From Vicinamibacterales bacterium (GTDB lineage Bacteria; Acidobacteriota; Vicinamibacteria; Vicinamibacterales; UBA2999): a DNA stretch of 44,395 nucleotides. Shown in pieces: positions 7,949 to 25,939 of this stretch (its first letter is position 1; each line of letters begins with the position of its first letter). The notes under the pieces are model-generated. The model was given only the letters and a program-made list of their open reading frames with translations, did not search any database and was not told the DNA's origin. A program made the position numbers and the translations under genes. The stretch covers positions 1 to 44,395 of the forward strand of contig JBIIDF010000003.1 in NCBI GenBank assembly GCA_044238535.1, in the 5' to 3' direction.

Positions 7949-8401
7949 TTACGGGGTGACGAGGAAGCGGATGGCGCCGGTTTCGGCCACCGGCTTGCCG
8001 GCCGCTGATGCCTTCACCTGCCAGAAGTAGGCCTCGGGTTCCAGGGCGATGGTATTGGGCAGGTGGGCCTCGGTGGTGGTCAGCGCCGGGCTTTCCCAGA
8101 GCACGCGGCCATCGGTGACGGCCGTCACCTTGACCACATACGCGTCAGCGCCGGGCACGGCTTCCCAGCGGAACAGGTCGATGTGTCCCGACGAGCTGCC
8201 TTCCTTGGGCTCGAGCGGAATGATGACGCCGGCTGGCGCAGCCGCCGGTGTGGCGGGAGCCGCCGAGGTGTCGGCCGCAGGGGCCGGAGTGGCCGGTGCC
8301 TCAGCCGGTGTGGACGAGCCGCCACCGCAGGCTGCGGTCACCAGGACCACGGCAGCCGTTGACAGCATCACTGACAGTCGCGAACGAAGTGTGACGTGCA
8401 T
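7949..8401 (-). CDS. Hypothetical lipoprotein (Pro/Ala linker plus small FnIII/Ig-like beta domain)
   Basis: Lipobox-like VTAAC, a PA-rich linker, then FRWEAVPGADAYVV...YFWQVKA. TATGAT -10 lies 6 nt upstream of the ATG. Confidence 0.75.
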   Translation of the reverse strand: MHVTLRSRLSVMLSTAAVVLVTAACGGGSSTPAEAPATPAPAADTSAAPATPAAAPAGVIIPLEPKEGSSSGHIDLFRWEAVPGADAYVVKVTAVTDGRVLWESPALTTTEAHLPNTIALEPEAYFWQVKASAAGKPVAETGAIRFLVTP

Positions 8402-8431
8402 CTGAAAATCATAGCGCGTATGCTGTGCGGC
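8402..8431. promoter_or_regulatory. Back-to-back leaderless promoters
   Basis: Plus strand: TATGCT (8419-8424) 7 nt before ATG 8432. Minus strand: TATGAT (8413-8408) 6 nt before ATG 8401. Neither gene has an SD. Confidence 0.6.
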
Positions 8432-9028
8432 ATGAAGACCATGTCCTCGGTGCTGACCGCGACCCTCGTGCTGGCCCTGCCCCTCGTGGCGGCGGCTCAG
8501 GCCCCCGCCCCCGGTGCTGCCCCGGCGCAGCCGCCCCGCCCGGCCCTGACGCTGACCACGCCGGCATTTCCCGACGGCGACCCCATTCCCGTGAAGTACA
8601 CGCAGGCCGGTGAGCAGGTTTCGCCTGTGCTCAACTGGACCAACGTGCCGGCCGGCACGCAGAGCTTTGTGCTGCACATGCGCGACCCCGACGTGGCGCG
8701 CAATCGCGGCACCGAAGATCAGGTGCACTGGCTGGTGTGGAATCTCCCCGGCACGGCGACCGGCCTTCCGGAAGGGGTACCCAAGGGCGCGACGCTGCCG
8801 GATGGCAGCCAGCAGGTCAGCGCAAGCGGCCCGGTTTACCGTGGCCCCGGCGCTCCGGCGTCAGGGCCGCAGCATCACTACACATTCGAGCTCTATGCCC
8901 TCGACACGAAGCTCGACGTGCCGGCTGGCGCTGATGCGTGGGTGACCCGCACGGCGGTGTGGAAGGCCATGGAAGGCCACGTGCTCGGCAAGGCCGTCTA
9001 CGTCGGGCTGTTCCGTCGGCCGCAGTAG
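8432..9028 (+). CDS. YbhB/YbcL family Raf kinase inhibitor-like (PEBP) protein
   Basis: SP.LNW, DPD, HWLVWNLP, Y.GP.AP..GP.HHYTFELYALD motifs and a signal peptide. Confidence 0.93.
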   Translation: MKTMSSVLTATLVLALPLVAAAQAPAPGAAPAQPPRPALTLTTPAFPDGDPIPVKYTQAGEQVSPVLNWTNVPAGTQSFVLHMRDPDVARNRGTEDQVHWLVWNLPGTATGLPEGVPKGATLPDGSQQVSASGPVYRGPGAPASGPQHHYTFELYALDTKLDVPAGADAWVTRTAVWKAMEGHVLGKAVYVGLFRRPQ

Positions 9029-14590: not shown

Positions 14591-14674
14591 ATGCCTGAAC
14601 CTGTCTGGCGCGCGGCCGTGCGCACCTTTATTGAGGTGTTCAAGGCCATCTACAACGAACCCCCCGGCTGTTGA
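14591..14674 (+). CDS. Possible 27-aa small protein MPEPVWRAAVRTFIEVFKAIYNEPPGC
   Basis: ATG...TGA with mostly G/C third positions, TAAGGT upstream (14570-14575) and a hairpin downstream. No SD. Confidence 0.35.
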   Translation: MPEPVWRAAVRTFIEVFKAIYNEPPGC

Positions 14675-14838
14675 GTGCCGAACGTGAGGTCACTGGACGG
14701 TGACCTGCTGAGCCGGCGTGCCACCCCTGCGGCGGCGGCGTCTTTGCCTGCGGAGCGATCGAACGACCCTGCGACGACGAGCCGGTAGTCCCTGGGGGTG
14801 GCGGGAGCCAGACCCAGCCCTTGCGCGTTGTCGTGAAG

Positions 14839-14892
14839 TTAACACCGCCGTAACCGTTCTGCGACATCGCTGTTGCAGTCGGCTTCTACCGT
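14839..14892 (+). promoter_or_regulatory. Pho-box-like direct repeats plus -10 of the TonB-dependent receptor gene
   Basis: TTAAC(14839), GTAAC(14850), GCGAC(14861), GTTGC(14872) at an 11-bp period, then 10 nt, TACCGT(14887), 6 nt, ATG. Confidence 0.55.
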
Positions 14893-14898
14893 AGGTGG

Positions 14899-17745
14899 AT
14901 GCACTCAGCGATATCTCGCCTGCGGATTGCCCTGTTTGTCATCGGATGTCTGTCTGCCGGGCCGAGCGTGGCCCTGGCACAGTCGGGCATCGGCACGGGC
15001 ACCATTGATGGAACGGTGGTCGATAGCGACAAGGCCGCGATGCCGGGGGTCACCGTGGACGTTCGTGACCAGTCGACGGGATTGACCCGTCAGGCGGTGA
15101 CCGATGCCCGCGGGCGTTTCGCGCTGGTCGCCTTGTCCCCTGGCGTGTATGCCCTCGAGGGGACGCTGGCCGGGTTTGCGCCGGTGCGACGCGAGCAGGT
15201 GGCGGTGACCGTGGGCGACACGGTGACGCTGTCGCTGACCATGACGGTGGCGGGAGTGACCGAGACGGTCGCCGTCACCGCGCGGGTGAGCGGCCTCGAT
15301 ACCCGGGGTGCCGCCACGGCGTCGTTCGTGAACGAACGCGCGATTCAGGAACTGCCGGTGCGCGGGCGCAACTTTGCCGAGTTCGTGCAGCTCACCCCAG
15401 GCGTGGTTCAGGAGGGCGACCGCTTTGGTCTCGTCATGGGTGGACAGCGCTCCATCAACTCGAACGTCTCGATCGACGGCGTCGACTTCAATGACCCGCT
15501 GCAGGGCAATCAGCGCGGGGGTAACGAGTCGGCCTTCTTCTTTCCCCAGGCGGCCATCCGCGAGTTTCAGGTGGTGCGCAGCGGCGCAGGTGCCGAGACA
15601 GGCCGCACCAGCGCCGGCCTGGTGAATGTGGTCACCAAGTCGGGCACCAACACCATCAATGGTGAAACGTTTTTTCTCAACCGCAACAAGGCCCTGACGT
15701 CGCCCGATGCGTTCGACCGCAAGCTCAACAACCAGCAGAACCAGTTCGGCGGCGCAGCCGGTGGTCCGATCCGCGCCAACCGTGCGTTCTACTTTGCGGC
15801 CGTCGAGCAGAACTTCCTGCGCGTGCCGTTCGTGGTCAAGTTCCAGACGCAGGCGGCCGGCGTGCCGGTGCCCGCCGCGCTGCAGGCCCTCGAAGGCGAG
15901 CAGTTCGGCACGAACAACCCGACGGCAGTCTTTCTCAAGACCGACTGGGTGCTGGGCGCCCGGTCGCGCCTCGAGGCGCAGTACACCTACGCGCGCCTGC
16001 GCGGCGACAACTTCAACTTTGACTCGCCCCAGCTGGATACGGCTACGACGGCGAACTTCCGCCGCGAGACACAGAGCCATGCCGGGAAGGTGAGCCTCAA
16101 CACCGTGGCGCGGCCTACGGTCGTCAATGAGCTGCGGCTGCAGTATGCGACGGACGACCGGACGGAAACGCCGAACTCGCTGCTGCCGCAGATCACCATC
16201 AACGGCTTCGGCACCATCGGCGGAGACTCGGGCCGCCCGCGCTTCTTCGAGGCACGCCGCCTGCAGGTGACCGACTCGCTGACGCTGGTGCGCGGCAGGC
16301 ACACCGTGCGCATCGGGGGCGACGTGAACATCACGCCGTCACGGCAGCAGCGCGAAAGCAACATCATCGGCCGCTACGACTTCACCTCGCTGGCCAACTA
16401 CAACGCCGGCGTCATTTCGCGGTATCGCCAGACGCTGCCGACGTTCGACCTGCAGGAACTGTTTTACGAAGCCACCCAGAAGGAAGCGGCGGCCTACATT
16501 CAGGACGCCTTCACGGTGAACAGCCGGCTGACCATCAATGCCGGGTTCCGGTGGGAGGGCCAGTGGAACCCCGACCCGCCGCGGCCGAATCCGGCCTATC
16601 CCCAGACCGCGGAGATTCCCGACGACCTGACGATGTTCCAGCCCCGCCTGAGTGCGGCGTGGGACCTGACCGGCCAAGGAAAGACGGTGGTGCGGGCCTC
16701 GGCGGGCATCTTCAACGCGCGCACGCCGGCGAATTTGTTCCAGCGCGTGTTCAGTGACAATGGCATCACGACGGTGGCGGTCGACAGCCGCATCGATACG
16801 ACGCTGCTGAGCCAGCTGACCTTCCCGAACGCGTATCCCGGGTTGGCCGCGGGGGTGCGTATCGGGCCGCAGCGCATCTTCGGTTTCGACCCGAACTTCC
16901 AGAACCCCGAAACGACCGGTCTGTCGGCGACGGTCGAGCATCGTGTGGCTGAGGCCCTGCAGGTCTCCGCAGGCTACATCCGCAACCGCACCATTCATCT
17001 GCAGCGGCGGATCGATCGCAACCTGTTCGCCCCGACGATCGCCGACACCGGCCTGCCGGTGTTTCCGTCGACCCGTCCCAATCCGACGATCGCTCAGCTT
17101 GAAATGAACGAATCAACGGCCCGGTCGCAGTACGACGCCCTGGTGCTGTCCGGCAATGGCCGCATGGGTCGCATGCAGTGGCAGATGGGCTACACCTTTG
17201 CGAAGAACTGGGATGACGACTCGAACGAGCGCAACTTCAGCCGGCAGCCGACCCTGAATCCGTTCAACCTCGCCGACGAGTGGGCGCCGTCGAAGCAGGA
17301 CGTGCGACACAATTTCACGGCGAATGCGATTACGGTGCTGCCGGGTGGCGTGACGCTGTCGGGCATTCTGCTCGCGCGGTCGGGGCTGCCGTACACGGCG
17401 GTGATTGGCAGCGACCAGCAGCGCGATGCCAATGATGACAATGACCGCGCCATCATCAACGGACGTGTGGTGCCGCGCAATTCGTTCAGGCAGCCGGGCT
17501 TCTTCAATCTGGATCTGCGCCTGATGAAGCAGGTGCGCCTCCGCGGGCGCTCGTCGCTGGCCCTGCTGGTCGACGTGCTCAACGCCACACGTGCGAAGAA
17601 CCTGAACTTCGGCAACGACGGCATCAGCGTCTACGGCACGCCCGCCAGCCCGGTGGCGACGGCGGGTCGGCCGCTCTACGCGCCATCGACGGCCCGCTTC
17701 GGGGGGCCCCGCCAGATTCAGCTGGGCGCACGGCTGATGTTCTGA
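14899..17745 (+). CDS. TonB-dependent receptor (Oar-like, N-terminal carboxypeptidase-regulatory-like domain)
   Basis: Signal peptide, GTI.GTV.D...PGVTV...TD.RG.F, I.ELP..GRNF...QLTPGV, EFQV...AE.GR.SAG.VNVVTKSGTN, C-terminal QLGARLMF. Confidence 0.93.
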   Translation: MHSAISRLRIALFVIGCLSAGPSVALAQSGIGTGTIDGTVVDSDKAAMPGVTVDVRDQSTGLTRQAVTDARGRFALVALSPGVYALEGTLAGFAPVRREQVAVTVGDTVTLSLTMTVAGVTETVAVTARVSGLDTRGAATASFVNERAIQELPVRGRNFAEFVQLTPGVVQEGDRFGLVMGGQRSINSNVSIDGVDFNDPLQGNQRGGNESAFFFPQAAIREFQVVRSGAGAETGRTSAGLVNVVTKSGTNTINGETFFLNRNKALTSPDAFDRKLNNQQNQFGGAAGGPIRANRAFYFAAVEQNFLRVPFVVKFQTQAAGVPVPAALQALEGEQFGTNNPTAVFLKTDWVLGARSRLEAQYTYARLRGDNFNFDSPQLDTATTANFRRETQSHAGKVSLNTVARPTVVNELRLQYATDDRTETPNSLLPQITINGFGTIGGDSGRPRFFEARRLQVTDSLTLVRGRHTVRIGGDVNITPSRQQRESNIIGRYDFTSLANYNAGVISRYRQTLPTFDLQELFYEATQKEAAAYIQDAFTVNSRLTINAGFRWEGQWNPDPPRPNPAYPQTAEIPDDLTMFQPRLSAAWDLTGQGKTVVRASAGIFNARTPANLFQRVFSDNGITTVAVDSRIDTTLLSQLTFPNAYPGLAAGVRIGPQRIFGFDPNFQNPETTGLSATVEHRVAEALQVSAGYIRNRTIHLQRRIDRNLFAPTIADTGLPVFPSTRPNPTIAQLEMNESTARSQYDALVLSGNGRMGRMQWQMGYTFAKNWDDDSNERNFSRQPTLNPFNLADEWAPSKQDVRHNFTANAITVLPGGVTLSGILLARSGLPYTAVIGSDQQRDANDDNDRAIINGRVVPRNSFRQPGFFNLDLRLMKQVRLRGRSSLALLVDVLNATRAKNLNFGNDGISVYGTPASPVATAGRPLYAPSTARFGGPRQIQLGARLMF

Positions 17746-17875
17746 TCCGCAGTCTCAAAGATTTACGCGACTGTCGTGAGGACGCCGCGTCATCGTGACG
17801 CGCGTCCTGCACACTGGAGTGCATGCGGCGGCGGGTGTTCATGCCCGCGCCGCTCACGATAGTCTCCTCCTCTTC

Positions 17876-17910
17876 GGCCACATCCTGCGTTGGGATGTGG
17901 CTGTTTTTTT
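17876..17910 (+). terminator. Rho-independent terminator
   Basis: GCCACATCC-loop-GGATGTGGC stem followed by TG and T7. Confidence 0.85.
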
Positions 17911-17945
17911 GCGCGGGCCGAGCGTGCGAGACGAAAGGGACGTCG

Positions 17946-19235
17946 TCAGTCGGCCGTGGACAGCCACGGCCAGGTGCTGGCGGTCGGGCGTGGCTGTGCT
18001 GTGGTGCACGCGGCCGCAGCCCGATGCTCACACAGCAACTGCTCGAGCAGCTGAAAATGCTCGTGGGCGACCAGCGGCCAGTGGTGCTGCGCAGCGGTCT
18101 CGGCTGCGCGCTGCACCCGTCGCGGTTCAGGCGCCAGCGACGCAGCCGTCACCGCGGCGGCGAGTCCGGCGCCCCCTGGCGGCGCCAGCCAGGCATTGTC
18201 GTCGGTGGCATAGCTCAGCACACCGCCCGCACGTGGAACGACGACGGGAACGCCGGAGGCCATGGCCTCGAGGGGGCCGATGCCGAACGGTTCCTTTGGG
18301 TTGGGATGCACGAAGACGTCGAGGCTGGCGTAGTGCGCGGCGAGCATTTCACGGTCGGTGATGCCCGGCACATGCAGCACACGTCCCCGGACGCGCCGCT
18401 CAGCATCGTGCATGAAGGCGTCCAGTGCCGGACCGTCACCAATCACGACGAGGCGATAGTCGCGGTGGCCCGAGGCACGCAGGTGTTCGAGCATGTCGAT
18501 CAGGGCATCAAGATGCTTTTCCGGTGACACGCGGCCCACGTAGCCGAGCAGCACGCTCCCGAGCGTTCCGCCGCACGCGGCTAGCAGATGGTTCCGCAGC
18601 GTGGCCTTTCGCGCGTCGGGTCGGAACCTGTCGCTGTCGACACCCATGCGGGCGAGTGTCACATCCGGATGATCCCCGGGGCCGTAGGCGGCGTGCAGTT
18701 CACTGGCGGTATATGCCGAATTGGCCAGATGCCGATCGAACGCGGGACGGTAGAGCCGTCGCATGTACCAGCGGGAGAACCATCGGCCCGCGGCGCCCGG
18801 GGTGACATAGGATGCGATGTTGTCATCCATCCGCTCGGAAGACATCGCCACCGTAGTCGGCATGCGCGGCAACCCATAGGCGCCCATTCTGAGCGCATAC
18901 CCGAGATACAGCAGCGTGTATTTGTCACAGACCTCGATGAGGTCGGGTTGCCAGGCTCTCAGCAGCCGTGCCAGTGGCGCGTGGCGCGGGGGCCAGTAGT
19001 GACGCGGCATCAGCAGGCGATAGCGCCGGTCGAAGGCCGGGGCGGGGTGTGCCTGCAGCGTATGCACCTCAACGCCGGGAGCGACATGTTCCACCGCGTC
19101 GTGCTCACCTGGAATGACGACGGCGAAGGGACGGCCGGTTCGCGCGGCCTCGGCGGTCAGCGCCGACACGAACGTGCGAATGCCTCCGGAGGCCGGGTGC
19201 ACATAGTTGGTGAGCAGGAGAATGCGTGGGGTCAC
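17946..19235 (-). CDS. Glycosyltransferase family 4 (GT-B)
   Basis: ILLLTNY....GGIRTF, GVD...F.P, YVGRVSPEK and EPFGIGPLEAMASG motifs. The GTG start at 19235 is coupled to the upstream TGA. Confidence 0.9.
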   Translation of the reverse strand: MTPRILLLTNYVHPASGGIRTFVSALTAEAARTGRPFAVVIPGEHDAVEHVAPGVEVHTLQAHPAPAFDRRYRLLMPRHYWPPRHAPLARLLRAWQPDLIEVCDKYTLLYLGYALRMGAYGLPRMPTTVAMSSERMDDNIASYVTPGAAGRWFSRWYMRRLYRPAFDRHLANSAYTASELHAAYGPGDHPDVTLARMGVDSDRFRPDARKATLRNHLLAACGGTLGSVLLGYVGRVSPEKHLDALIDMLEHLRASGHRDYRLVVIGDGPALDAFMHDAERRVRGRVLHVPGITDREMLAAHYASLDVFVHPNPKEPFGIGPLEAMASGVPVVVPRAGGVLSYATDDNAWLAPPGGAGLAAAVTAASLAPEPRRVQRAAETAAQHHWPLVAHEHFQLLEQLLCEHRAAAACTTAQPRPTASTWPWLSTAD

Positions 19236-19753
19236 GCGGCCCGTCCATTCCAGAGCAGCCGTGGGATGCGCCGCAGATCGTCGTGCAGGGGCCTGGCGCC
19301 CGGTCCGACGACCATGACCCCGCGTCGCATCAGCCAGACGCTGAACGAGGTCGTGATCATGCTCATCGTGACCGAGGCGACGATGCTGCGGCCGAGCTCC
19401 GGTGTGCCTGCGGTCAGATGGAGCAGCAGTTCGAGGGCGTGGCTGACTCCGGGCACCACCACCATGGCCACCGCCGTGGCGACGGCCGGCGGGTGCGCTT
19501 GCCGGAATGCCTGTGTCAGCGCCCCATAGAAGCCCGACATCAGGAAGCGATATCCGAACTCGACCCCAAGCGCGAGCAGCGCCGGCTTCCAGCCGGCCGA
19601 CAAGTTCAGGGTGAAGAACAGCCCTGCGCGCGAGACGGCGCTCGTGACCGCGGCCTTGTAGTTCCAGCGGGCGAACACGAGCGAACCTGGATGCCGGCAC
19701 AGGCACCCGACCACCTGCCAAGGCGACAGGCCATGAGGCAGATGGGAGTCCAC
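19232..19753 (-). CDS. Hypothetical integral membrane protein (about 4 TM)
   Basis: RWNYKAA, then hydrophobic stretches with GFYGALTQAFR and H.LE..H...GTP. It lies 5 bp after the PHP stop and overlaps the GT4 start. Start codon uncertain. Confidence 0.75.
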   Translation of the reverse strand: MDSHLPHGLSPWQVVGCLCRHPGSLVFARWNYKAAVTSAVSRAGLFFTLNLSAGWKPALLALGVEFGYRFLMSGFYGALTQAFRQAHPPAVATAVAMVVVPGVSHALELLLHLTAGTPELGRSIVASVTMSMITTSFSVWLMRRGVMVVGPGARPLHDDLRRIPRLLWNGRAA

Positions 19754-19758
19754 AGCGA

Positions 19759-20676
19759 TCAGGCCGCGAAGTCGGGCACGACTCGCTGCACCCTGGCGGG
19801 GGCCCCGACCAGCTCGGCCATCAGCAGGCGGTTGAACCGCTCTTCCCTGAGGAAGTGCAGGTAGGCACCCACCAGGGCCACAGGCACGAGCGGCAGGCCG
19901 AAGGCGCCACCCCACAGCATGCCCTGCGCGCGGCCCGATGTGGGCTGCTGCCAGGCCGTGCGGATGTTCTCGCTGTAGAACGACCCCGAGAACCGCAGGA
20001 TGTCCTCGGCGAGGGTGCCCCAGTGTCCGTGTCGGCCGCCTACGATGGCCCGACCCGCCCACAGGCCTTCCATGAACGACTCGCGGTCGGTGGCACCCGG
20101 CACTTCGGTCCACGTCTCTCCGACGCCGCGCCGATGGTGTGCATCACTGCCCGCCACTGTGCGCAGCCCCGTTGCGTCGGCCACCCAGGCGGCGGTGCGG
20201 TTCTGAATCGGCAGGCGTGATCCGTTGATGACCTCGAGCGCATCGACCCATGGCAGCAGCGCCGCCAGATGTGCCGAGGTCAGGCAGCCTGCGACGCTGG
20301 AGCCGATATGGTTCAGGGTCGTGAACAGCCGCTGCTCCCGCAGATAGGGCATGAGTTCGCGCACGTCCGTGCGCAGGCGCTGCACTTCCGCATGTGTGGC
20401 CGGCGTGAGGCCGAGCACATTCAGATGCACCTTCACCGGATCACCGGGAAACTCACCGGTCACTTCGCAGCCGACGATGACATCGGGCCGATGCGCGAGC
20501 TCAAGCGCTCCGCTGATGACATCGTGATCCGTGATGCACACCAGGTCCATACCGCGCTGCTTCGACAGCGAGTAGACATCGTCGGGTGTGTTGTACGACT
20601 CGCGGAGCACATGCTGCAAGGGACGAATCGTGCTGTAGCCGGAATGCATGGTATGCACGTGCGCATCAAGCTTCAC
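19759..20676 (-). CDS. PHP-domain metal-dependent phosphoesterase
   Basis: DAHVHT, ITDHD, GCEVT, NH, EVING and GSDAH metal-ligand motifs. GTG start behind an AGGAGG SD. Confidence 0.92.
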   Translation of the reverse strand: MKLDAHVHTMHSGYSTIRPLQHVLRESYNTPDDVYSLSKQRGMDLVCITDHDVISGALELAHRPDVIVGCEVTGEFPGDPVKVHLNVLGLTPATHAEVQRLRTDVRELMPYLREQRLFTTLNHIGSSVAGCLTSAHLAALLPWVDALEVINGSRLPIQNRTAAWVADATGLRTVAGSDAHHRRGVGETWTEVPGATDRESFMEGLWAGRAIVGGRHGHWGTLAEDILRFSGSFYSENIRTAWQQPTSGRAQGMLWGGAFGLPLVPVALVGAYLHFLREERFNRLLMAELVGAPARVQRVVPDFAA

Positions 20677-20727
20677 GGGAACCTCCTGACACGCTGGGTG
20701 TGTCACCCCCAGTTATCGCAGGTGCAC

Positions 20728-20754
20728 ACGACAGCCGTGCATCGGCGAGACAAC
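20728..20754 (-). promoter_or_regulatory. Weak candidate Pho-box-like repeats upstream of the PHP operon
   Basis: Minus strand GTTGT, GATGC, GTCGT at an 11-bp period. The -10 is unclear. Confidence 0.25.
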
Positions 20755-20801
20755 ACCCGAGGAAAATCCGTCTATCAACCGCGTGACGGTGGTGCATCAT
20801 C

Positions 20802-20844
20802 GTCACACGGCTGTCACGCGCCGTTGACGTCGACCGCGTATCGT
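20802..20844 (+). promoter_or_regulatory. Pho-box-like direct repeats plus -10 of the methyltransferase gene
   Basis: GTCAC(20802), GTCAC(20813), TTGAC(20824), then 10 nt, TATCGT(20839). Confidence 0.6.
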
Positions 20845-20854
20845 CACACTGCTG

Positions 20855-21475
20855 ATGACCTCGACGTACTGGCTGCTGCTGGCCGCGCTGCCCCTGCTCG
20901 CGGTGGAACGCGTGGCCTATGCACTGATCTGGCGCAGACCCACGGCCTTCCGCGCGGTGTGCAACCGGCTGGGTTGGACTGACCCGGTGCGCGTGCTGCG
21001 CTGGCTGTTTGTCGCATTCAAGGTGCTGCAGTTCGCCGTCTTCCTGCTGTGGATCGGCGGGCATGGTGGCGTGCAGCCGCTGCACTGGCCACCCGGTATC
21101 GCCGGCGTGATCGCGGTGCTGGCAGTGGCGACGGGGCAGACGCTGAATATCTCGGTGTTTGTGCGACTCGGTTCCGTCGGCGTGTTCTACGGCACGCGCT
21201 TCGGTCACGTCGTGCAGTGGTGCACCGGCTTTCCGTTCTCACTGCTCTCGCATCCCCAGTATGTCGGCACGGTGCTCAGCATCTGGGGCCTGTTCCTGCT
21301 GACCCGCTACCCTGCGCCGGACTGGTTTCTGCTGCCGCTGCTCGAGACGGCGTACTACGTCATGGGGGCGATAGCGGAACGAGTGCCGCCACCCGACGCA
21401 GCAGCGGCTCACCCATCCGCACCGTCTGTCCTGCCGCCACCCCCTCGGCCAGCACCACTCCCCTGGACGCGATGA
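20855..21475 (+). CDS. Phospholipid N-methyltransferase, PEMT/Opi3/PLMT (ICMT-fold) type
   Basis: Multi-TM protein with GQ.LN.SVF..LG..GVFYG.RFG....W.T.FPF....HPQYVG motif. Confidence 0.85.
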   Translation: MTSTYWLLLAALPLLAVERVAYALIWRRPTAFRAVCNRLGWTDPVRVLRWLFVAFKVLQFAVFLLWIGGHGGVQPLHWPPGIAGVIAVLAVATGQTLNISVFVRLGSVGVFYGTRFGHVVQWCTGFPFSLLSHPQYVGTVLSIWGLFLLTRYPAPDWFLLPLLETAYYVMGAIAERVPPPDAAAAHPSAPSVLPPPPRPAPLPWTR

Positions 21476-22268
21476 CGATGACGGTCGAGCCATGTTCAAA
21501 GTAGCCGACCTCGTCGCCCCGCGTCAGCGGTGTGCTGCCGGGCACGACGCACTGAGCGTGCCGGTCACGTTCGGCCCAGCCGGGCACGACGGGCAGCACA
21601 ATGCCCGACACCAGAATCGCACCCACGGGCACCAGGACTACCGTCGACGGCTCGCCGTGCAGGGCGAAGGGCAGCACCGCCCGAGTGTTTCGGACGTAGA
21701 GACGCGGCAGCCACTGCACCGTGGGCGGATTCACATTCCAGGCGGCCCCGGGCACGTGACGCACGTCGAGCAGTGTGGCTGTGTCAGGGGTATGGAAGCG
21801 GTGATACATCGCCGGTGTCAGCCTCAGCGTGACAAAGACGCCGTCGACGCACCGGGCCGCGAGCGCGCGGTCCGTGAGCAGGTCTTCGAGGGTGTAGGTA
21901 AGGCCCTTGGCCTGCACCAGGAGGCCATCGGTCACCGGCCCTGCGGACATGACCTGCCCGTCGCAGGGCGACACGAGGTGCTGCGGGTCGGCGTCGATGG
22001 GTCGGGCTCCGGGGCGCAGGCGCCGGATGAAGCATGCGCGCATCGATGGGAACTGCGACTCGGCCGCTTCCTCCAGATGCAGGTCACCTGCGACCCAGGT
22101 GAGTACGCGAATCAGCAGCGCGGCAGCCAGGGGCTGTTCCCAGCGACTGAGCCAGGCCACCACAGGAGCGGTGAGAGGGCCCGGCAGGATGTTGCTGACC
22201 AGCACACGGCACGCATCGACGAATCGACGCTGAAGGGGAGGCGATGGTGACGTCAGTGGTGATGACAT
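21360..22268 (-). CDS. psd: Phosphatidylserine decarboxylase-family pyruvoyl enzyme
   Basis: F.RRLRPGARPI, SPCDG, QAKG.TY.L..LL, YHRFH.P and the GST autocleavage site (HGSTV). Start uncertain (ATG 22268 or GTG 22208). Confidence 0.88.
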   Translation of the reverse strand: MSSPLTSPSPPLQRRFVDACRVLVSNILPGPLTAPVVAWLSRWEQPLAAALLIRVLTWVAGDLHLEEAAESQFPSMRACFIRRLRPGARPIDADPQHLVSPCDGQVMSAGPVTDGLLVQAKGLTYTLEDLLTDRALAARCVDGVFVTLRLTPAMYHRFHTPDTATLLDVRHVPGAAWNVNPPTVQWLPRLYVRNTRAVLPFALHGEPSTVVLVPVGAILVSGIVLPVVPGWAERDRHAQCVVPGSTPLTRGDEVGYFEHGSTVIVIASRGVVLAEGVAAGQTVRMGEPLLRRVAALVPLSPP

Positions 22269-23944
22269 GGAGCCTTTCCGTTGGGGGAGTGGGAGGGGCC
22301 GCCTGGATCGCTCGCCGCGTGTGGCGCCGCCTGCGGCTGTCGAGGGCCAAACATGGGTCGCTGGCGGGTCATGTGCGCTGGGCGAAGCGTTTGTCGCGGT
22401 TGCTGGTGACTGTCGACTATGAGGCGCCGCAGGTGTTTGCCTGCGACGGGGCCCCACCGGCCGTGGTCGAGCAGCGGCATCAGGCGTTCGATGCCCTGAT
22501 GGCGGCTCTGCGCGAACAGTCGCCACAGTCGACGGCACTGGCGGCTGTGGCTCGCCCCCGTGTGTCGGACATGCAGTTCACGTCGCGCTATCGCGTGCCA
22601 CCGGTCTTCAGCCGTTATGTGCGCGAACGGCTGCCGGCAGCCCCGTTTCTGGTGGAATCGCGCGGAAGCACGCTGACGACGATTGACGGTCAGGTGCTCT
22701 ACGACCTCGCCGGTTCGTATGGCGTGACCCTGTTCGGCACGCCGTTCTACGCCGACTGCATCCGGGCTGGTGTGGCAGAGGTTGCGACGCTCGGGCCGGT
22801 GCTCGGTGCCTACCATCCGCTGGTCGCCGACAACGTGCGCCGGCTTTGCGACATTTCCGGCATGGACGAGGTGTCGTTCCACATGTCGGGCACCGAAGCG
22901 GTGATGCAGGCGGTTCGCCTGGCGCGCTATCACAGCGGGCGCTCGCATATTGTGCAATTCTGCGGGGCCTATCACGGCTGGTGGGACGACGTGCAGCCAG
23001 GGGTCGGCAATCCGAGTGCGCCGGGCGACGTGTACGTGCTGAGCGAGATGAGTGCTGCCACGCTGCGCGTGCTCGCCACCCGCGATGACATCGCGTGTGT
23101 GCTGGTCAATCCGCTGCAGGCCCTGCATCCGAATCGGGGAGCACCCTCGGACGGCACGCTGCTGTCCAACGAGCGGACCGCCGGTTATGACCGCGCGGCC
23201 TATGCGGCGTGGCTGCGCCAGCTGCGCGAGGTCTGCACGGCGCGCGGCATCGCCCTGATCTTCGATGAAGTGTTTCTCGGCTTCAGGCTTGCGCGCGGCG
23301 GGGCTCAGGAATACTTCGGCGTGGCGGCCGACCTCGTGACCTATGGCAAGACGCTTGGTGGCGGACTGCCGGTGGGCGCCGTCTGCGGACGCCAGCGATG
23401 GATGCGGCGTTTCCGTGAGGACCGTCCCTCGGATATCTGCTTTGCACGGGGCACCTTCAATGCCCATCCCTATGTGATGGCGACGATGCACGAATTCCTG
23501 ACGCGGCTCGACGATGATCGGCCGGGCGCACCCTCGTTGCGGCGGCAGTACGGCAGCATCGAAGGTGTGTGGATCACACGCATCGCTGCCCTCAACGACG
23601 CACTGACGGCCCGAGAGCTGCCGGTGCGGCTGGTCCACATGCTGTCGGTGGCGACCGTGCTCTATTCGGCGCCATCGCGCTTCAACTGGATGCTCCAGTT
23701 CTACCTGCGCCGGCATGGGCTGCTGCTGTCGTGGGTCGGCACGGGGCGATTCATCTTCAGCCATGCAACGACCGACGAGGAGTGGGCCGAAATCATCCGC
23801 CGCGTTGTGGCTGCGTGTGAAGACATGCGCGGCGGGGGATGGTGGTGGGTGCCCGCAGGCGCGACCACCCGCACCGTCCGCCGGGAGGCGACCGGCGAGC
23901 TGGTGCGGGCAACCTGGCAGTCGTGGATCAGGCGGGCTCGGTGA
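22244..23944 (+). CDS. Class III PLP aminotransferase, GSA-aminomutase-like, with N-terminal extension
   Basis: SGTEAVM, GAYHGW, IFDEVFLGFR, DLVTYGK(PLP)TLGGG and RGTFNAHP motifs. GGAGG SD before ATG 22244. Confidence 0.9.
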   Translation: MVTSVVMTWSLSVGGVGGAAWIARRVWRRLRLSRAKHGSLAGHVRWAKRLSRLLVTVDYEAPQVFACDGAPPAVVEQRHQAFDALMAALREQSPQSTALAAVARPRVSDMQFTSRYRVPPVFSRYVRERLPAAPFLVESRGSTLTTIDGQVLYDLAGSYGVTLFGTPFYADCIRAGVAEVATLGPVLGAYHPLVADNVRRLCDISGMDEVSFHMSGTEAVMQAVRLARYHSGRSHIVQFCGAYHGWWDDVQPGVGNPSAPGDVYVLSEMSAATLRVLATRDDIACVLVNPLQALHPNRGAPSDGTLLSNERTAGYDRAAYAAWLRQLREVCTARGIALIFDEVFLGFRLARGGAQEYFGVAADLVTYGKTLGGGLPVGAVCGRQRWMRRFREDRPSDICFARGTFNAHPYVMATMHEFLTRLDDDRPGAPSLRRQYGSIEGVWITRIAALNDALTARELPVRLVHMLSVATVLYSAPSRFNWMLQFYLRRHGLLLSWVGTGRFIFSHATTDEEWAEIIRRVVAACEDMRGGGWWWVPAGATTRTVRREATGELVRATWQSWIRRAR

Positions 23945-24533
23945 AGGCGGCGGGGTTGGCGGGCTCGCCTTTGAGGAGACGCAGCGGCGCCCGGTGATAC
24001 AACTTTACGTCGTGAAACGGGTCGGTCAGGATTTTCGTGACCCACACCACACCGGTCTGCACATCACGTGTCACACTGAGCAGGACGCCGCGGCCGAACA
24101 GTGCGGCGGCGGCGACGGCCATCCAGATGCGCGCGATGTTGTCGACCAGCGCACCGACGGACGCGGCCGGCGTCAGCCATCCGCCGAATGAAGGGTCAGC
24201 CAGCAGCAACAGCGGGGATGCTGCCCAGGCGATGTGCAGCAGCACCTTGCGATGCAGGTTGTAGCCGACCTTGATGTCTTCCTTGTGGTCGTGTGTCGCC
24301 TCGTTGATGGCGTCGTACGTTTTCGGTTCGAAGAAGAAGTGACCGATCTGGCGCGACGGCATCGCCACCATCCAGGCGAGCAGCACCGCCAGTGTCGGCT
24401 CGGTCCATGCCACGGCATAGCAGGCCAGGAACGTCACGGCACTGACAAAGTGCAGCGACTGATTGACCAGGTTGTGATGATAGTAGCGATGGTCGTCCCA
24501 TCGCTGTTCCGCCAGCGCTTCGGTAAATGTCAT
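23928..24533 (-). CDS. Mpo1/DUF962-like His-rich membrane protein
   Basis: YHH..VNQSLH and RQIGHFFFEPK motifs resemble the Mpo1/DUF962 His motifs. Several TM segments. GAGGAG SD. Confidence 0.65.
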   Translation of the reverse strand: MTFTEALAEQRWDDHRYYHHNLVNQSLHFVSAVTFLACYAVAWTEPTLAVLLAWMVAMPSRQIGHFFFEPKTYDAINEATHDHKEDIKVGYNLHRKVLLHIAWAASPLLLLADPSFGGWLTPAASVGALVDNIARIWMAVAAAALFGRGVLLSVTRDVQTGVVWVTKILTDPFHDVKLYHRAPLRLLKGEPANPAAFTEPA

Positions 24534-24575
24534 GCGTGCACTCCTCACGGGTTGTCGCGTCACAACCGCCGTTCC

Positions 24576-24640
24576 ACCATGCGGCAGATGTGTGACGCGC
24601 GCGTGACAGGCGCGCAAACTCGGCGCAACAGCAGGCGAAC
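24576..24640 (-). promoter_or_regulatory. Pho-box-like repeats plus -10 for the DUF962-like gene
   Basis: Minus strand GTTCG, GTTGC, TTTGC, GTCAC(24607-24603), GTCAC(24596-24592) at an 11-bp period, then 10 nt, CATGGT. Confidence 0.55.
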
Positions 24641-24649
24641 GGTGTCGTT

Positions 24650-24703
24650 GTCACACAGCCGTTGCCCGGTCGACATGGCGATGTCATGGACGCAGGGCAC
24701 GCT
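24650..24703 (+). promoter_or_regulatory. Pho-box-like repeats plus -10 for the second GT4 gene
   Basis: GTCAC(24650), GTTGC(24661), GACAT(24672), GTCAT(24683), then 10 nt, CACGCT(24698), 6 nt, ATG 24710. Confidence 0.6.
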
Positions 24704-24709
24704 GGCGCC

Positions 24710-25939
24710 ATGCGGATTGCCATCCTGACGGACAATGACTTCGGGAAGGTGAACGGAGTCACCACCACACTGAAGGCGGTTCTGCGGTACGCGCCACCCG
24801 ACCTTCGACTGCGTGTCTTCACCGCATGCCGAGAAGAAGCGGATACGCCCGAGTATCGTGCGCTTGTGGCCCGCGGAATGCCCATTCCCTGTTATCGCGA
24901 AATGGAAATGTTCTGGCCGGGTCGGACGCGACTCAAGGCCGAGGTGCAGCGCTTTGCGCCCAGCGTGCTGCACCTGACGACGCCGGGTCCGATCGGCCTC
25001 GCGGCGCTGCATATTCAGCGGGCGCTGCGCCTGCCGATGGTGGGGAGCTTCCACACCGATCTCGCGGCCTATGCGCACCTGCTCACCGGATCACGCGCGG
25101 CGGGCCGGGTGATGGCCGGGTTCCTCAGGTGGCCGTATGGCAAGTGCGAGCACGTACTGGCTCCGTCCGAGGCAACGCGACAGCTGCTGCTGGCTGGACG
25201 GGGTCGTGCCGCCGATTCGGTAAGCATCTGGCGACGGGGTGTGGATACGAGCGCCTATGCGCCCGTACATCGCTCAGCTGCACTCCGGGAGTCATGGGGC
25301 GTCAGCGATGCGCGGCCGGCAGTGCTGTATGTCGGAAGGGTCTCGAAAGAGAAGGGTCTCGACCTGCTGGCCCCGCTGACGCGCGCCCTCTCGGAGGCCG
25401 GCCACGCGCACCGACTGGTCGTGGTGGGCGAGGGTCCCTACCTGGACGAACTGCGTCGGATCCTGCCGGACGCGGTGTTCACCGGGGTGCTCGGTGGCGC
25501 GGCTCTCGCAGAGGCCTATGCATCGGCTGATGTCTTCGCCTTTCCCAGCGCGACGGATACGGCCGGCAATGTTGTGCTGGAAGCGCAGTCCAGTGGCCTG
25601 CCGGTCCTGGTCACCAACATGGGCGGCCCGCAGGAAAATCTCGACGCCGGCACGAGCGGCCTGGTGCTGCCTGCCGGAGACGTGTCGGCCTGGGCCCGTG
25701 CGCTCGGGCCCATGATTCGCGACCGGCGGTGGCGACAGTCGCTGGGGCACGGCGCCCGCGCCTATGCCGAACGCCGCAGCTGGCACGAGGCGCTCGCGCC
25801 ACTCTACGGGTGGTATCGCCTGCTGGCATCGCAGGCCCCTCGCGTATCATCGGGACACGCATGGATGACGGCTCCCGCCCTTTCTCGACCGCAGCACTCA
25901 TCGGCACCGGCGTCATGGGCCGGGGCATTGCCCAGCTGA
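24710..25939 (+). CDS. Glycosyltransferase family 4 (Agt/MgdA-like diacylglycerol glycosyltransferase candidate)
   Basis: MRIAILTD......NGVTTTL, H.TTPGPIG, SFHTD...Y, RGVD, YVGRVSKEKGL and DTAGNVVLEAQ.SG motifs. Confidence 0.9.
   Translation: MRIAILTDNDFGKVNGVTTTLKAVLRYAPPDLRLRVFTACREEADTPEYRALVARGMPIPCYREMEMFWPGRTRLKAEVQRFAPSVLHLTTPGPIGLAALHIQRALRLPMVGSFHTDLAAYAHLLTGSRAAGRVMAGFLRWPYGKCEHVLAPSEATRQLLLAGRGRAADSVSIWRRGVDTSAYAPVHRSAALRESWGVSDARPAVLYVGRVSKEKGLDLLAPLTRALSEAGHAHRLVVVGEGPYLDELRRILPDAVFTGVLGGAALAEAYASADVFAFPSATDTAGNVVLEAQSSGLPVLVTNMGGPQENLDAGTSGLVLPAGDVSAWARALGPMIRDRRWRQSLGHGARAYAERRSWHEALAPLYGWYRLLASQAPRVSSGHAWMTAPALSRPQHSSAPASWAGALPS

What the first reader, a model, noticed from the sequence alone, without database searches (positions are those of the whole stretch)
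14839..25939. Candidate undescribed phosphate-starvation membrane-lipid remodelling system (9 genes, shared regulatory signature)
Seen: a TonB receptor, GT4, an unknown membrane protein, a PHP phosphoesterase, a PEMT-type methyltransferase, a PSD-like decarboxylase, a class III aminotransferase, an Mpo1-like protein and a second GT4 are contiguous. Four of their promoters carry the same 11-bp repeat architecture. Established: P-starved bacteria use PhoB to induce a phospholipase (PlcP) and a GT4 (Agt) or BtaA/BtaB to replace phospholipids with glyco- or betaine lipids. No PlcP, BtaA/B, SqdB or OlsB-like gene is visible in this window. Inference: PHP frees diacylglycerol and the GT4s make glycolipids. 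The aminotransferase, pyruvoyl decarboxylase, N-methyltransferase and Mpo1-like oxidase would then build a P-free, N-methylated amino head group, i.e. a new betaine- or amino-lipid route. Inducing ordinary PE/PC synthesis under P limitation would be paradoxical, which points to non-canonical substrates.
Basis: partly seen in the sequence, partly recalled or inferred. Interest (0 to 1): 0.88.

Follow-up and report, generated by a model that had tools for sequence, protein, structure and literature searches.

The report
Phosphate-starvation lipid remodelling gene island
A freshwater acidobacterium carries a gene island that most likely rebuilds its membrane lipids when phosphate runs out, and its core of three enzymes occurs in hundreds of bacterial species without ever having been studied.

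Summary
The nine genes are real, contiguous and carry the stated domains. The island is two modules plus a separate receptor gene, not one nine-gene system.

**Module A** is a PSD-like decarboxylase, a membrane-anchored class-III aminotransferase and an Mpo1-like protein.
- The trio is syntenic in 80 loci from Proteobacteria, Myxococcota and Acidobacteriota (PSD 78/80, Mpo1-like 76/80, a GT4 64/80).
- Natural gene fusions tie its members together.
- Two unrelated phospholipid-N-methyltransferase types have joined it: PEMT here, PmtA-like in Bradyrhizobium.

**Module B** is a PHP phosphoesterase, two GT4s and a small membrane protein. It is a Vicinamibacterales operon that looks like a stand-in for PlcP–Agt.

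**Regulation.**
- Pho-box-like 11-bp repeats sit in two divergent promoters here.
- In the 80 loci they are about 8-fold enriched in the module's non-coding DNA.
- Neighbours elsewhere include PlcP-like, UDP-glucose dehydrogenase, OlsB and Ppk/Ppx genes.

Phosphate-starvation lipid remodelling is therefore well supported. The product, and whether it lacks phosphorus, remains unknown. No paper on the trio was found.

The parts
14839..14855 (+). Weak 11-bp-spaced TTAAC/GTAAC pair upstream of the receptor gene (candidate low-affinity Pho box)
   Evidence: Read. The block GAAGTTAACAC..CGTAAC..GTTC is kept in G004 while the 100 bases before it are full of indels. The GTAAC half-site also occurs in sites of other loci.
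14899..17745 (+). TonB-dependent receptor with a carboxypeptidase-regulatory-like N-domain; separate transcription unit
   Evidence: Pfam. Terminator-like hairpin at 17875-17903. Orthologue 95% identical in G004. A comparable receptor gene was found in only 2 of 80 distant loci.
17946..19235 (-). GT4 glycosyltransferase a, last gene of the PHP operon
   Evidence: Pfam. Best NCBIfam match is NF053787 at 124.6 bits against a cut-off of 480. Its GTG start overlaps the stop of the upstream ORF in GTGA. Orthologues in G004, G012 and G020.
19232..19714 (-). Small membrane protein of about 160 aa with no known family
   Evidence: No Pfam or NCBIfam hit. Conserved in G004 (90%), G012 (48%) and G020 (52%), always between or next to the GT4 genes. 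Atlas neighbours are unnamed Acidobacteriota clusters.
19759..20676 (-). PHP-family metal-dependent phosphoesterase with C-terminal long helices (probable membrane anchor); proposed stand-in for PlcP
   Evidence: PHP_C 43.2 bits. AlphaFold model pLDDT 88.3. Foldseek best hits are PHP phosphoesterases: RNase AM 7ug9 at E 2e-10, PsfC, TM0559. H6, H8, E71, H84, H123, D178 and H180 are invariant in 22 sequences. A GT4 follows directly in G002, G012 and G015.
20801..20828 (+). Pho-box-like direct repeats (CGTCAC..CTGTCAC..CGTTGAC at 11-bp spacing) in the PHP|PEMT divergent promoter
   Evidence: CTGTCACGCGCCGTTGAC is kept in G004. G012 has 10/12 sites upstream of its PEMT gene.
20855..21475 (+). PEMT-type membrane methyltransferase
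   Evidence: PF04191 53.4 bits. Found in exactly the genomes that have the aminotransferase orthologue: G000, G004, G012 and G015, out of 41 searched.
21360..22268 (-). Accessory PSD-family pyruvoyl decarboxylase (second copy in the genome)
   Evidence: PF02666 180 bits. TIGR00163 145.6 bits against a cut-off of 111.75. A housekeeping 212-aa PSD lies elsewhere, on C33. Catalytic D, H, H and G-S are invariant in 75/75. Tyr137 is replaced by Arg and Ser166 by Asn in 75/75.
22262..23944 (+). Membrane-anchored class-III aminotransferase, the signature gene of the conserved trio
   Evidence: PF00202 110 bits. Start at M7 by alignment; mean column identity 72%. Best solved relative is the mycosubtilin synthase aminotransferase domain 6kfm at E 4e-43, ahead of GSA aminomutases at 5e-33. 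HemL model 158 bits against a cut-off of 527.
23928..24533 (-). Mpo1-like (DUF962) His-rich membrane protein, probable Fe-dependent oxygenase
   Evidence: PF06127 26.6 bits. H15, H19, H28, H65, E69, D74 and E85 are invariant in 18 sequences. Natural fusions to a PmtA-like methyltransferase, to PSD and to the aminotransferase.
24592..24608 (-). Pho-box-like repeat (TGTCACGCGCGCGTCAC) upstream of the Mpo1-like gene
   Evidence: Kept in G004.
24648..24665 (+). TTGTCAC-N4-CCGTTGC element upstream of GT4b, resembling the element before PEMT
   Evidence: Read. Identical apart from one base in G004. Similarity to the PEMT element was judged by eye only.
24686..25939 (+). GT4 glycosyltransferase b, the copy that travels with the trio in other phyla
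   Evidence: Pfam. tblastn finds a relative (28-38% identity) beside the trio in 64 of 80 loci. It directly follows PHP in G002, G012 and G015.

Best explanation
This is a phosphate-starvation (PhoB-type) regulated membrane-lipid remodelling island made of two separable modules.

**Module B** (PHP phosphoesterase, small membrane protein, GT4a, GT4b) is a Vicinamibacterales counterpart of the PlcP-Agt pair.
- The membrane-anchored PHP enzyme removes the phosphorylated head group of a phospholipid.
- The GT4 enzymes glycosylate the resulting lipid to make glycolipids.

**Module A** (Mpo1-like oxygenase, class-III aminotransferase, PSD-like pyruvoyl decarboxylase, plus the PEMT methyltransferase in this lineage) is a widespread, uncharacterised head-group tailoring pathway. 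It works on a membrane lipid. The most likely order is:
1. Oxidation of a hydroxy group or hydroxy-acid to a carbonyl.
2. Transamination to an alpha-amino acid.
3. Decarboxylation to a primary amine.
4. N-methylation.

The result would be an ethanolamine- or choline-like, possibly phosphorus-free, zwitterionic or cationic lipid that replaces PE/PC.

**Shown:** gene content, synteny, fusions, motif enrichment and neighbourhood.
**Inferred:** the regulator, all substrates, the order of steps and the product.
For: **Co-conservation of the trio.**
- Across 80 loci from at least five major lineages: PSD 78/80, Mpo1-like 76/80, GT4 64/80.

**Fusions.**
- Methyltransferase-Mpo1 fusions (for example P0128, 53 members), an Mpo1-PSD fusion (P0149) and an Mpo1-aminotransferase fusion (P0151).
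- Open frames of 824 and 770 aa span Mpo1-like plus aminotransferase in L057 and L061.

**Methyltransferases.**
- Two unrelated methyltransferase types were recruited.
- PEMT here has a phyletic pattern identical to the aminotransferase in 41 genomes.
- A PmtA-like class-I enzyme (NF045882, 162 bits) sits in 25 Bradyrhizobium-type loci.

**Pho-box-like sites.**
- Two exact sites in the window, both in cluster promoters.
- In the 80 loci, 0.70 sites per kb in the module's non-coding DNA against 0.09 per kb in flanking non-coding DNA.
- 54 of 80 loci have a site in a module promoter.

**Neighbours elsewhere**: Metallophos/PlcP-like (8+3 loci), UDP-glucose dehydrogenase (8), OlsB (2), Ppk and Ppx (3 each).

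**Other points.**
- PHP-GT4 is a conserved operon, and the PHP fold with intact metal ligands was confirmed.
- The cluster's PSD is an extra copy.
- No OlsB-type gene was found in 5 Vicinamibacterales genomes.
- BtaA was found in only 1 of 20 genomes that carry the trio.
- The organism is widespread in lake and river metagenomes.
- The PlcP-Agt system with Pho boxes is established (PMC4796936, passages read).
Against: - No induction data exist.
- The window's own PSD|aminotransferase junction has no recognisable site.
- The looser motif is not enriched window-wide: 5 found against 9.05 expected.
- Genome-wide, 23 sites reach 11/12. Of the 10 downstream ORFs examined, only 3 are Pho-regulon-like (NPP phosphodiesterase, TonB receptor, GT4). 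The other 7 are unrelated or have no family.
- The Pho box could not be calibrated on pstS.
  - pstS and pstB are not assembled in this MAG.
  - No PBP_like_2-type PstS over the cut-off was found in G004.
  - No PhoB candidate reaches the TIGR02154 cut-off: 224 bits against 296.
- PSD, PEMT and PmtA-like enzymes are the canonical PS-to-PE-to-PC enzymes, so the product may contain phosphorus.
- The Mpo1 assignment is marginal (26.6 bits against a cut-off of 24).
- No PHP-family phospholipase C is among the structural neighbours.
- GT4 orthology to Agt was not tested, because no reference sequence was to hand.
- Many of the 80 loci are close kin (25 Bradyrhizobium-type), so the counts overstate independence.
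Confidence: 0.6

Rival explanations
1. Module A is a conditional but otherwise ordinary phospholipid pathway. The extra PSD and the PEMT/PmtA-like enzymes make PE, monomethyl- and dimethyl-PE or PC from phosphatidylserine. The aminotransferase and the Mpo1-like protein supply or recycle the serine-type head group, for example by converting phosphatidylglycerol via an oxidised head group to phosphatidylserine. The product still contains phosphorus. Its role under phosphate stress would be to convert lipids into the form that the head-group-cleaving enzyme prefers, or to keep membrane charge balanced.
For: - The PSD passes the curated PSD model (TIGR00163 145.6 bits against 111.75) and keeps all catalytic residues.
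- The methyltransferases belong to the two known phospholipid N-methyltransferase families.
- Bradyrhizobium Pmt paralogues methylate PE when expressed in E. coli (PMC8590670, passages read). Whether any of them is the cluster gene was not tested.
- The best curated match of all the GT4s is a phosphatidylglycerol-head-group glycosyltransferase, though far below its cut-off.
Against: - A housekeeping PSD already exists in the genome.
- The side chains that bind phosphate in E. coli PSD, Tyr137 and Ser166 (PMC7952604), are invariably Arg and Asn here (75/75). This is weak evidence, because the genome's own short-type PSD has Phe at the first position.
- The neighbours PlcP-like, Ugd and OlsB are all phosphorus-sparing functions.
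- Making more phospholipid under Pho control is hard to rationalise.
Confidence: 0.22
2. The repeats bind another OmpR/PhoB-family regulator, for example an envelope-stress or metal regulator. The island would then be an envelope-lipid modification system unrelated to phosphate supply.
For: - Eleven-base direct repeats are common to the whole OmpR/PhoB family (recalled knowledge).
- One genome-wide site lies between a CpxP-like gene and a response regulator.
- 7 of the 10 ORFs examined downstream of sites are not phosphate-related.
- A response regulator of unknown specificity lies next to the trio in L044.
Against: - The half-site TGTCAY with 11-bp spacing is the Pho-box consensus (recalled). 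Pho boxes at plcP clusters are reported in PMC4796936.
- In Proteobacteria the sites lie beside PlcP-like, Ppk/Ppx and OlsB genes.
- Other sites in this genome precede an NPP phosphodiesterase.
- pstS lies on the same contig as the island in G012, about 15 kb away.
Confidence: 0.12
3. Module A acts on a soluble amino acid or amine rather than on a lipid, for example to make or salvage ethanolamine, choline or a polyamine-like compound. Its nearness to lipid genes would be only loosely functional.
For: The PSD family has members that act on free amino acids: tryptophan decarboxylase PsiD (PMC11929908) and a fungal arginine decarboxylase (PMC12904898). Both were seen only as a search listing and the start of the abstract.
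Against: - The aminotransferase has a conserved N-terminal hydrophobic segment.
- The Mpo1-like protein is an integral membrane protein.
- Both methyltransferase partners are of phospholipid type.
- A lipid GT4 is adjacent in 64/80 loci.
Confidence: 0.06

Closest known systems
PlcP-Agt phosphate-starvation lipid remodelling (Sinorhizobium, Agrobacterium, SAR11, Phaeobacter, Pseudomonas)
   Same: A head-group-cleaving phosphoesterase gene lies directly next to a GT4 glycosyltransferase gene, with Pho-box-like sites upstream. In related loci of other phyla the homologous GT4 lies beside a Metallophos (PlcP-type) gene and UDP-glucose dehydrogenase. That fits glucuronosyl- or glucosyl-diacylglycerol synthesis (PMC4796936).
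   Different: In the window the phosphoesterase is PHP-fold, not calcineurin-like. There are two GT4 genes plus an unknown small membrane protein. The trio of PSD-like, aminotransferase and Mpo1-like genes has no counterpart in the described system.
PS to PE to PC pathway (Psd plus PmtA/PEMT)
   Same: A pyruvoyl decarboxylase of the PSD family is combined with a phospholipid-N-methyltransferase-type enzyme. The catalytic residues are intact.
   Different: It is an extra copy beside a housekeeping Psd. It is always paired head-to-head with a membrane aminotransferase and an Mpo1-like protein. The phosphate-contacting residues are replaced. It carries Pho-type promoter motifs. No phosphatidylserine synthase gene is in the module.
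BtaA/BtaB betaine-lipid (DGTS) synthesis
   Same: It would serve the same need: a zwitterionic, N-methylated lipid made from diacylglycerol under phosphate limitation. Methylation is an integral step.
   Different: There is no homology. BtaA (PF11899) was found in 1 of 20 trio-bearing genomes and in 0 of 5 Vicinamibacterales genomes. The chemistry here involves transamination and decarboxylation rather than transfer of an aminocarboxypropyl group.
Aminotransferase domain of mycosubtilin/iturin synthase (MycA) and GSA aminomutase (HemL)
   Same: These are the closest solved relatives of the aminotransferase (E 4e-43 and 5e-33). Both handle carbonyl groups on acyl or aldehyde substrates.
   Different: The protein here is stand-alone, with a roughly 130-residue N-terminal extension that includes a hydrophobic segment. 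It fails the HemL model (158 bits against 527).
Yeast Mpo1, the Fe(II)-dependent 2-hydroxy fatty acid dioxygenase
   Same: Pfam family PF06127, and a His-rich membrane protein.
   Different: The match is marginal and only N-terminal. The bacterial protein is part of a head-group pathway and is often fused to a methyltransferase. No activity is known for it.

Membership tests
PlcP-Agt lipid remodelling system | PlcP: calcineurin-like metallophosphoesterase acting as phospholipase C | tested here: not met
   No Metallophos domain in the nine genes; a PHP-fold enzyme stands in that place. Metallophos genes lie beside the GT4 in 8+3 of the 80 related loci.
PlcP-Agt lipid remodelling system | GT4 glycosyltransferase (Agt) adjacent to the phosphoesterase | tested here: inconclusive
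   The GT4 domains are present and adjacent. Orthology to characterised Agt could not be tested because no reference sequence was to hand.
PlcP-Agt lipid remodelling system | Pho box upstream | tested here: met
   Met at motif level only. Binding was not tested.
PlcP-Agt lipid remodelling system | Induction by phosphate limitation and formation of glycolipids from diacylglycerol | not testable with these tools
   Needs culture, RNA-seq and lipidomics. The metatranscriptome contigs show only that fragments are present in an RNA library.
Phosphatidylserine decarboxylase (PSD) | Family models over their curated cut-offs | tested here: met
   PF02666 180 bits against 22. TIGR00163 145.6 bits against 111.75.
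Phosphatidylserine decarboxylase (PSD) | Self-cleavage G-S motif and the Asp/His catalytic residues (E. coli D90, H144, H147, G253-S254) | tested here: met
   Invariant in 75 of 75 sequences. Mapping is and PMC7952604.
Phosphatidylserine decarboxylase (PSD) | Phosphate-contacting side chains Tyr137 and Ser166 of E. coli PSD | tested here: not met
   Arg and Asn in 75 of 75. The position is not universal among true PSDs: the genome's own housekeeping copy has Phe.
Phosphatidylserine decarboxylase (PSD) | Decarboxylates phosphatidylserine | not testable with these tools
   Needs an enzyme assay.
Glutamate-1-semialdehyde aminomutase (HemL) | Equivalog model over its cut-off | tested here: not met
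   TIGR00713 158.2 bits against a cut-off of 527.3. HemL-like paralogues at 34-41% identity are found in the related genomes.
Mpo1 2-hydroxy fatty acid dioxygenase | PF06127 over its cut-off, and conserved His residues | tested here: inconclusive
   26.6 bits against 24, covering profile positions 7-67 of 95. Four His are invariant in 18 sequences. Their correspondence to the yeast catalytic residues was not mapped.
PEMT-type phospholipid methyltransferase | PF04191 over its cut-off | tested here: met
   53.4 bits against 25. No NCBIfam model matched. Substrate untested.
BtaA/BtaB betaine lipid synthesis | BtaA (PF11899) present | tested here: not met
   0 of 5 Vicinamibacterales genomes, though no control genome rang in that call. 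1 of 20 trio-bearing genomes.
HexS N-acetylglucosaminyl-phosphatidylglycerol synthase (NF053787) | Equivalog model over its cut-off | tested here: not met
   124.6 and 126 bits against a cut-off of 480. It is merely the best of the curated GT4 models.

The most novel reading that the evidence does not exclude
The PSD-like, aminotransferase and Mpo1-like trio, with a fused or adjacent N-methyltransferase, is a new biosynthetic route to a phosphorus-free, amine-bearing and N-methylatable membrane lipid. The lipid would be a functional replacement for PE/PC. Its head group would be built in place on a diacylglycerol- or glycolipid-derived precursor by oxidation, transamination, pyruvoyl-dependent decarboxylation and methylation. 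The route would be used under phosphate starvation by hundreds of soil and freshwater species that lack BtaA/BtaB. In Vicinamibacterales the diacylglycerol would be supplied by a PHP-fold phospholipase that replaces PlcP.
Probability: 0.3. Interest if true: 0.9.

Novelty: new variant of a known kind. Interest (0 to 1): 0.74.

Why it matters
Replacing phospholipids with phosphorus-free lipids is a main way in which bacteria and algae cope with scarce phosphate. It shapes phosphorus budgets in lakes, oceans and soils.

- Only a few routes are known: PlcP-Agt glycolipids, BtaAB betaine lipids, OlsBA ornithine lipids and SQDG.
- The trio described here is conserved and fused in informative ways. 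It carries Pho-type promoter sites. It sits in the phosphate-stress lipid loci of Bradyrhizobium, many freshwater Burkholderiales (Polynucleobacter, Limnohabitans), Myxococcota and Acidobacteriota. In the papers I could search it has no assigned product.
- Working it out would probably add a lipid class or pathway, and would give a new marker gene for phosphorus stress in metagenomes.
- A PHP-fold enzyme in the place of PlcP would be a new kind of lipid phosphoesterase.

Tried and rejected
**Rejected readings.**
- One nine-gene operon or system. The receptor gene ends at a terminator and is not co-conserved. PHP occurs without the trio in G002 and G020.
- The aminotransferase as HemL.
- The downstream 3-hydroxyacyl-CoA dehydrogenase as part of the island. 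It belongs to a paa cluster with PaaX.

**Tried without result.**
- The repeat finder returned only chance-like coding matches.
- Calibrating the Pho box on pstS, pstB or phoB of this genome failed. PstB and PstS were not found in the MAG, PhoU sits at a contig end, and no PhoB reaches the cut-off. G004 shows no PBP_like_2 PstS over the cut-off.
- phmmer of PHP against solved structures found nothing. The fold search was needed instead.
- The Atlas searches gave only unnamed or DUF962 clusters.
- The Arg/Asn replacement in PSD was considered as proof of a substrate without phosphate. It was rejected as decisive because the housekeeping PSD has Phe at the first position.
- I tried to reason out a substrate (glucuronosyl-diacylglycerol, ornithine lipid, 2-hydroxy fatty acids, the phosphatidylglycerol head group). 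None is singled out by the data.
- Metatranscriptome contigs X19 and X20 hold short pieces of the receptor, GT4a, PHP, PSD, aminotransferase and GT4b genes. DNA carry-over cannot be excluded and contigs cannot rank expression. Parts without cover say nothing.

**Literature.** Eight searches found no paper that treats the trio.
- Term searches inside PMC9239053 gave 0 hits for aminotransferase, decarboxylase, DUF962, semialdehyde, aminomutase and 'unknown lipid'.
- PMC13700237 gave 0 hits for the first five of those terms. It was not searched for 'unknown lipid'; glycosyltransferase, searched in its place, gave 3 hits.
- PMC4796936 gave 0 hits for aminotransferase and decarboxylase.
- Supplementary tables of these papers, which may list induced genes, could not be seen.
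- One search was badly framed and wasted.
- Whether the Bradyrhizobium cluster methyltransferase is one of the published PmtX enzymes could not be checked.

Full report
**What is there.** The window is contig C190 of a 3.0-Mb, 407-contig MAG with about 68% G+C.

Close relatives of its PHP protein are named Vicinamibacterales. One of them lies on a contig of the same length as G012:C61. The organism is therefore an acidobacterium of that order.

Near-identical DNA is held by lake, river, freshwater and aquaculture metagenomes of at least 14 studies besides the possible source.

The genes, in order, are:
- TonB-dependent receptor, 14899-17745 (+)
- GT4a, 17946-19235 (-)
- a 160-aa membrane ORF without family, 19232-19714 (-)
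- PHP phosphoesterase, 19759-20676 (-)
- PEMT, 20855-21475 (+)
- PSD, 21360-22268 (-)
- class-III aminotransferase, 22262-23944 (+)
- Mpo1-like, 23928-24533 (-)
- GT4b, 24686/24710-25939 (+)

The next genes are paaH and paaX, which are unrelated.

PHP, the small ORF and GT4a form an operon. The stop of the small ORF and the GTG start of GT4a overlap in GTGA. A 13-bp hairpin with a T-run follows the receptor gene.

**The repeats.**
- GTCAY-N6-GTCAY occurs exactly twice in the 44 kb. Both copies lie in the two divergent promoter regions of the island, at 20802-20817 and 24592-24607 (0.44 expected, 5 of 100 shuffles reach two).
- A looser pattern is not enriched over the whole window (5 against 9.05 expected).
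- In the close relative G004 the block CTGTCACGCGCCGTTGAC before PEMT and both elements between the Mpo1-like gene and GT4b are kept.
- Before the receptor gene, a TTAAC/GTAAC pair at 11-bp spacing survives as an island in otherwise rearranged DNA.
- The PSD|aminotransferase junction, where the two starts nearly touch, shows no site.
- So the 'four promoters' claim holds for two intergenic regions that serve four genes, plus a weaker fifth site.

**Is the motif a Pho box in this organism?** This could not be calibrated directly.
- No PstB or PstS is in the MAG, PhoU sits at a contig end, and no PhoB candidate reaches the strict cut-off.
- Genome-wide, 23 sites match TGTCAY-N5-TGTCAY at 11 of 12 or better.
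- Of the ten downstream ORFs I scanned, three are of Pho-regulon type: an NPP-type phosphodiesterase, another CarboxypepD-type TonB receptor, and another GT4. Seven are not. This evidence is mixed.

**The comparative test.**
- The aminotransferase has full-length orthologues in only 3 of 40 relatives: G004 at 90%, G015 at 66% and G012 at 50%.
- It has 55-62% identical relatives in Bradyrhizobium, Methyloversatilis, many Burkholderiales, Steroidobacteraceae, Polyangia, Holophagales, Acidobacteriaceae and Vicinamibacteria.
- In the best 80 loci, tblastn with the window's proteins finds PSD in 78, Mpo1-like in 76 and a GT4b-like gene in 64. Nearly always the order is PSD(-) aminotransferase(+) Mpo1(-). 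By contrast PHP is found in 1, the receptor in 2, and PEMT and the small ORF in 0.
- The conserved core is therefore the trio, usually with a GT4.
- Among 41 genomes of the own order, PEMT is found in exactly the four genomes that have the trio. PHP is found in those four plus G002 and G020.
- PHP is directly followed by GT4b in G002, G012 and G015. In G020 the order is GT4b, small ORF, GT4a, PHP.
- Hence there are two modules.

**Context of the trio elsewhere.** I clustered the ORFs within 7 kb of the aminotransferase, with a GC3 filter, so the counts are lower bounds. Domain scans of representatives show:
- a class-I methyltransferase whose best curated match is phospholipid N-methyltransferase PmtA (162 bits, with the next family at 79), lying between the Mpo1-like gene and the GT4 in 25 Bradyrhizobium-type loci;
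- calcineurin-like phosphoesterases next to the GT4 in 8+3 loci;
- UDP-glucose 6-dehydrogenase in 8 loci;
- an MFS transporter in 9 loci;
- OlsB in 2 loci;
- Ppk and Ppx in 3 loci each.

PlcP-Agt clusters with Pho boxes, and Agt making glucosyl- and glucuronosyl-diacylglycerol, are established (PMC4796936, passages read).

**Pho-box-like sites across the 80 loci.**
- Sites at 11/12 or better number 78 inside the module span and 29 outside it.
- Restricted to DNA not covered by likely genes, the density is 0.70 per kb inside against 0.09 per kb outside.
- 22 of 25 Bradyrhizobium-type loci and 32 of 55 other loci have a site in the PSD|aminotransferase gap, or within 350 bases upstream of the Mpo1-like gene or the GT4.
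- Kin share sites, so these are not independent counts. The sites do differ in sequence and position between lineages.

**Functional coupling within the trio.**
- A search for longer proteins found Mpo1-like domains fused to the PmtA-like methyltransferase (several clusters, for example P0128 with 53 members), to a PSD domain (P0149) and to the aminotransferase (P0151).
- In L057 and L061, open frames of 824 and 770 aa span the Mpo1-like gene plus the aminotransferase.
- Some other listed fusions (GDPD, PHO4, CorA, GT4) may be gene-calling read-through.

**The single proteins.**
- *PSD.*
  - It is an extra copy. G000, G004 and G012 have it besides a 212-aa housekeeping PSD, and G008 has only the latter.
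  - It keeps D90, H144, H147 and G253-S254 in 75 of 75 sequences.
  - It has Arg for Tyr137 and Asn for Ser166, the side chains that bind the lipid phosphate in E. coli PSD.
  - The housekeeping copy has Phe at the first position, so this is only a hint.
- *Aminotransferase.* It is closest to the beta-ketoacyl-aminating domain of mycosubtilin synthase (E 4e-43), ahead of GSA aminomutases (5e-33). It fails the HemL model.
- *Mpo1-like protein.* It has four invariant His and several invariant acidic residues. Its Pfam match is marginal.
- *PHP.* Its model (pLDDT 88.3) has the PHP barrel followed by long C-terminal helices. It matches only PHP phosphoesterases, and the metal-ligand residues are invariant. 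A lipid substrate is inferred from the anchor and the operon.

**Other P-free routes.**
- No OlsB-type domain was found in five Vicinamibacterales genomes.
- No BtaA was found there either, though no control rang in that call.
- BtaA was found in 1 of 20 trio-bearing genomes.

**Reading.** Phosphate-starvation lipid remodelling is the best-supported frame.

Module B most likely does what PlcP-Agt does, with a different phosphoesterase fold.

For module A, each enzyme class fits a sequence of oxidation, transamination, decarboxylation and N-methylation that yields an ethanolamine- or choline-like head group. The recruitment of two unrelated phospholipid-type methyltransferases supports an amine that is methylated.

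Whether the scaffold carries phosphate is open. The canonical PS-to-PE-to-PC reading remains a serious rival.

**Literature.** Eight full-text searches and term searches in three phosphate-limitation papers found nothing on the trio. Supplements were closed.

Noticed in passing
window 14591-14706: A 27-codon ORF (14591-14674, MPEPVW...PPGC) is followed by a perfect palindrome, AGGTCAC-N6-GTGACCT, at 14687-14706. The block lies upstream of the TonB receptor and is about 95% conserved with G004. The five differences inside the ORF are two synonymous and three conservative changes (V/L, I/V, I/L), while the DNA after the block is full of indels. This suggests a real small protein or leader peptide.
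   Followed up: partly
G012:C61:28422-29198 (L104): In relative G012 a PstS-type phosphate-binding protein gene lies on the same contig as the island, about 15 kb from the aminotransferase gene.
   Followed up: no
L103 (G012:C61), aminotransferase and PSD genes: In G012 the aminotransferase and the cluster's PSD each contain one in-frame TGA, and GT4a matches in two pieces. The trio may be decaying there, or the assembly may have errors.
   Followed up: no
L102 (G004:C2), between GT4a and the receptor orthologue: G004 has a second TonB-dependent receptor gene (26% identical to the window's) inserted between GT4a and the receptor orthologue.
   Followed up: no
G000:C181:6457-7779 (L106 2458-3780): A third GT4 gene elsewhere in the genome is preceded by a perfect 12/12 site, TGTCACGGTCCTGTCAC. 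It may be a further phosphate-regulated glycolipid gene.
   Followed up: partly
window 8396-9028: A YbhB/PEBP-family (phosphatidylethanolamine-binding protein) gene lies 6 kb upstream of the island. No link to the island was tested.
   Followed up: no
window 21360-21475 and 25861-25939: Convergent PEMT and PSD reading frames overlap by about 115 bases at their 3' ends. GT4b appears to overlap the start of paaH by about 79 bases. The true ends were not checked.
   Followed up: no
L016, L018, L022, L024, L030, L032, L038, L062: An ORF of about 300 aa with no Pfam or NCBIfam match recurs near the trio in 8 loci of Burkholderiales, Polyangia and others. It is a possible further member of the pathway.
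   Followed up: partly
L044 12934-13710: In the Vicinamibacteria MAG locus an OmpR-type response regulator gene lies directly after the Mpo1-like gene and before a TonB receptor gene.
   Followed up: no
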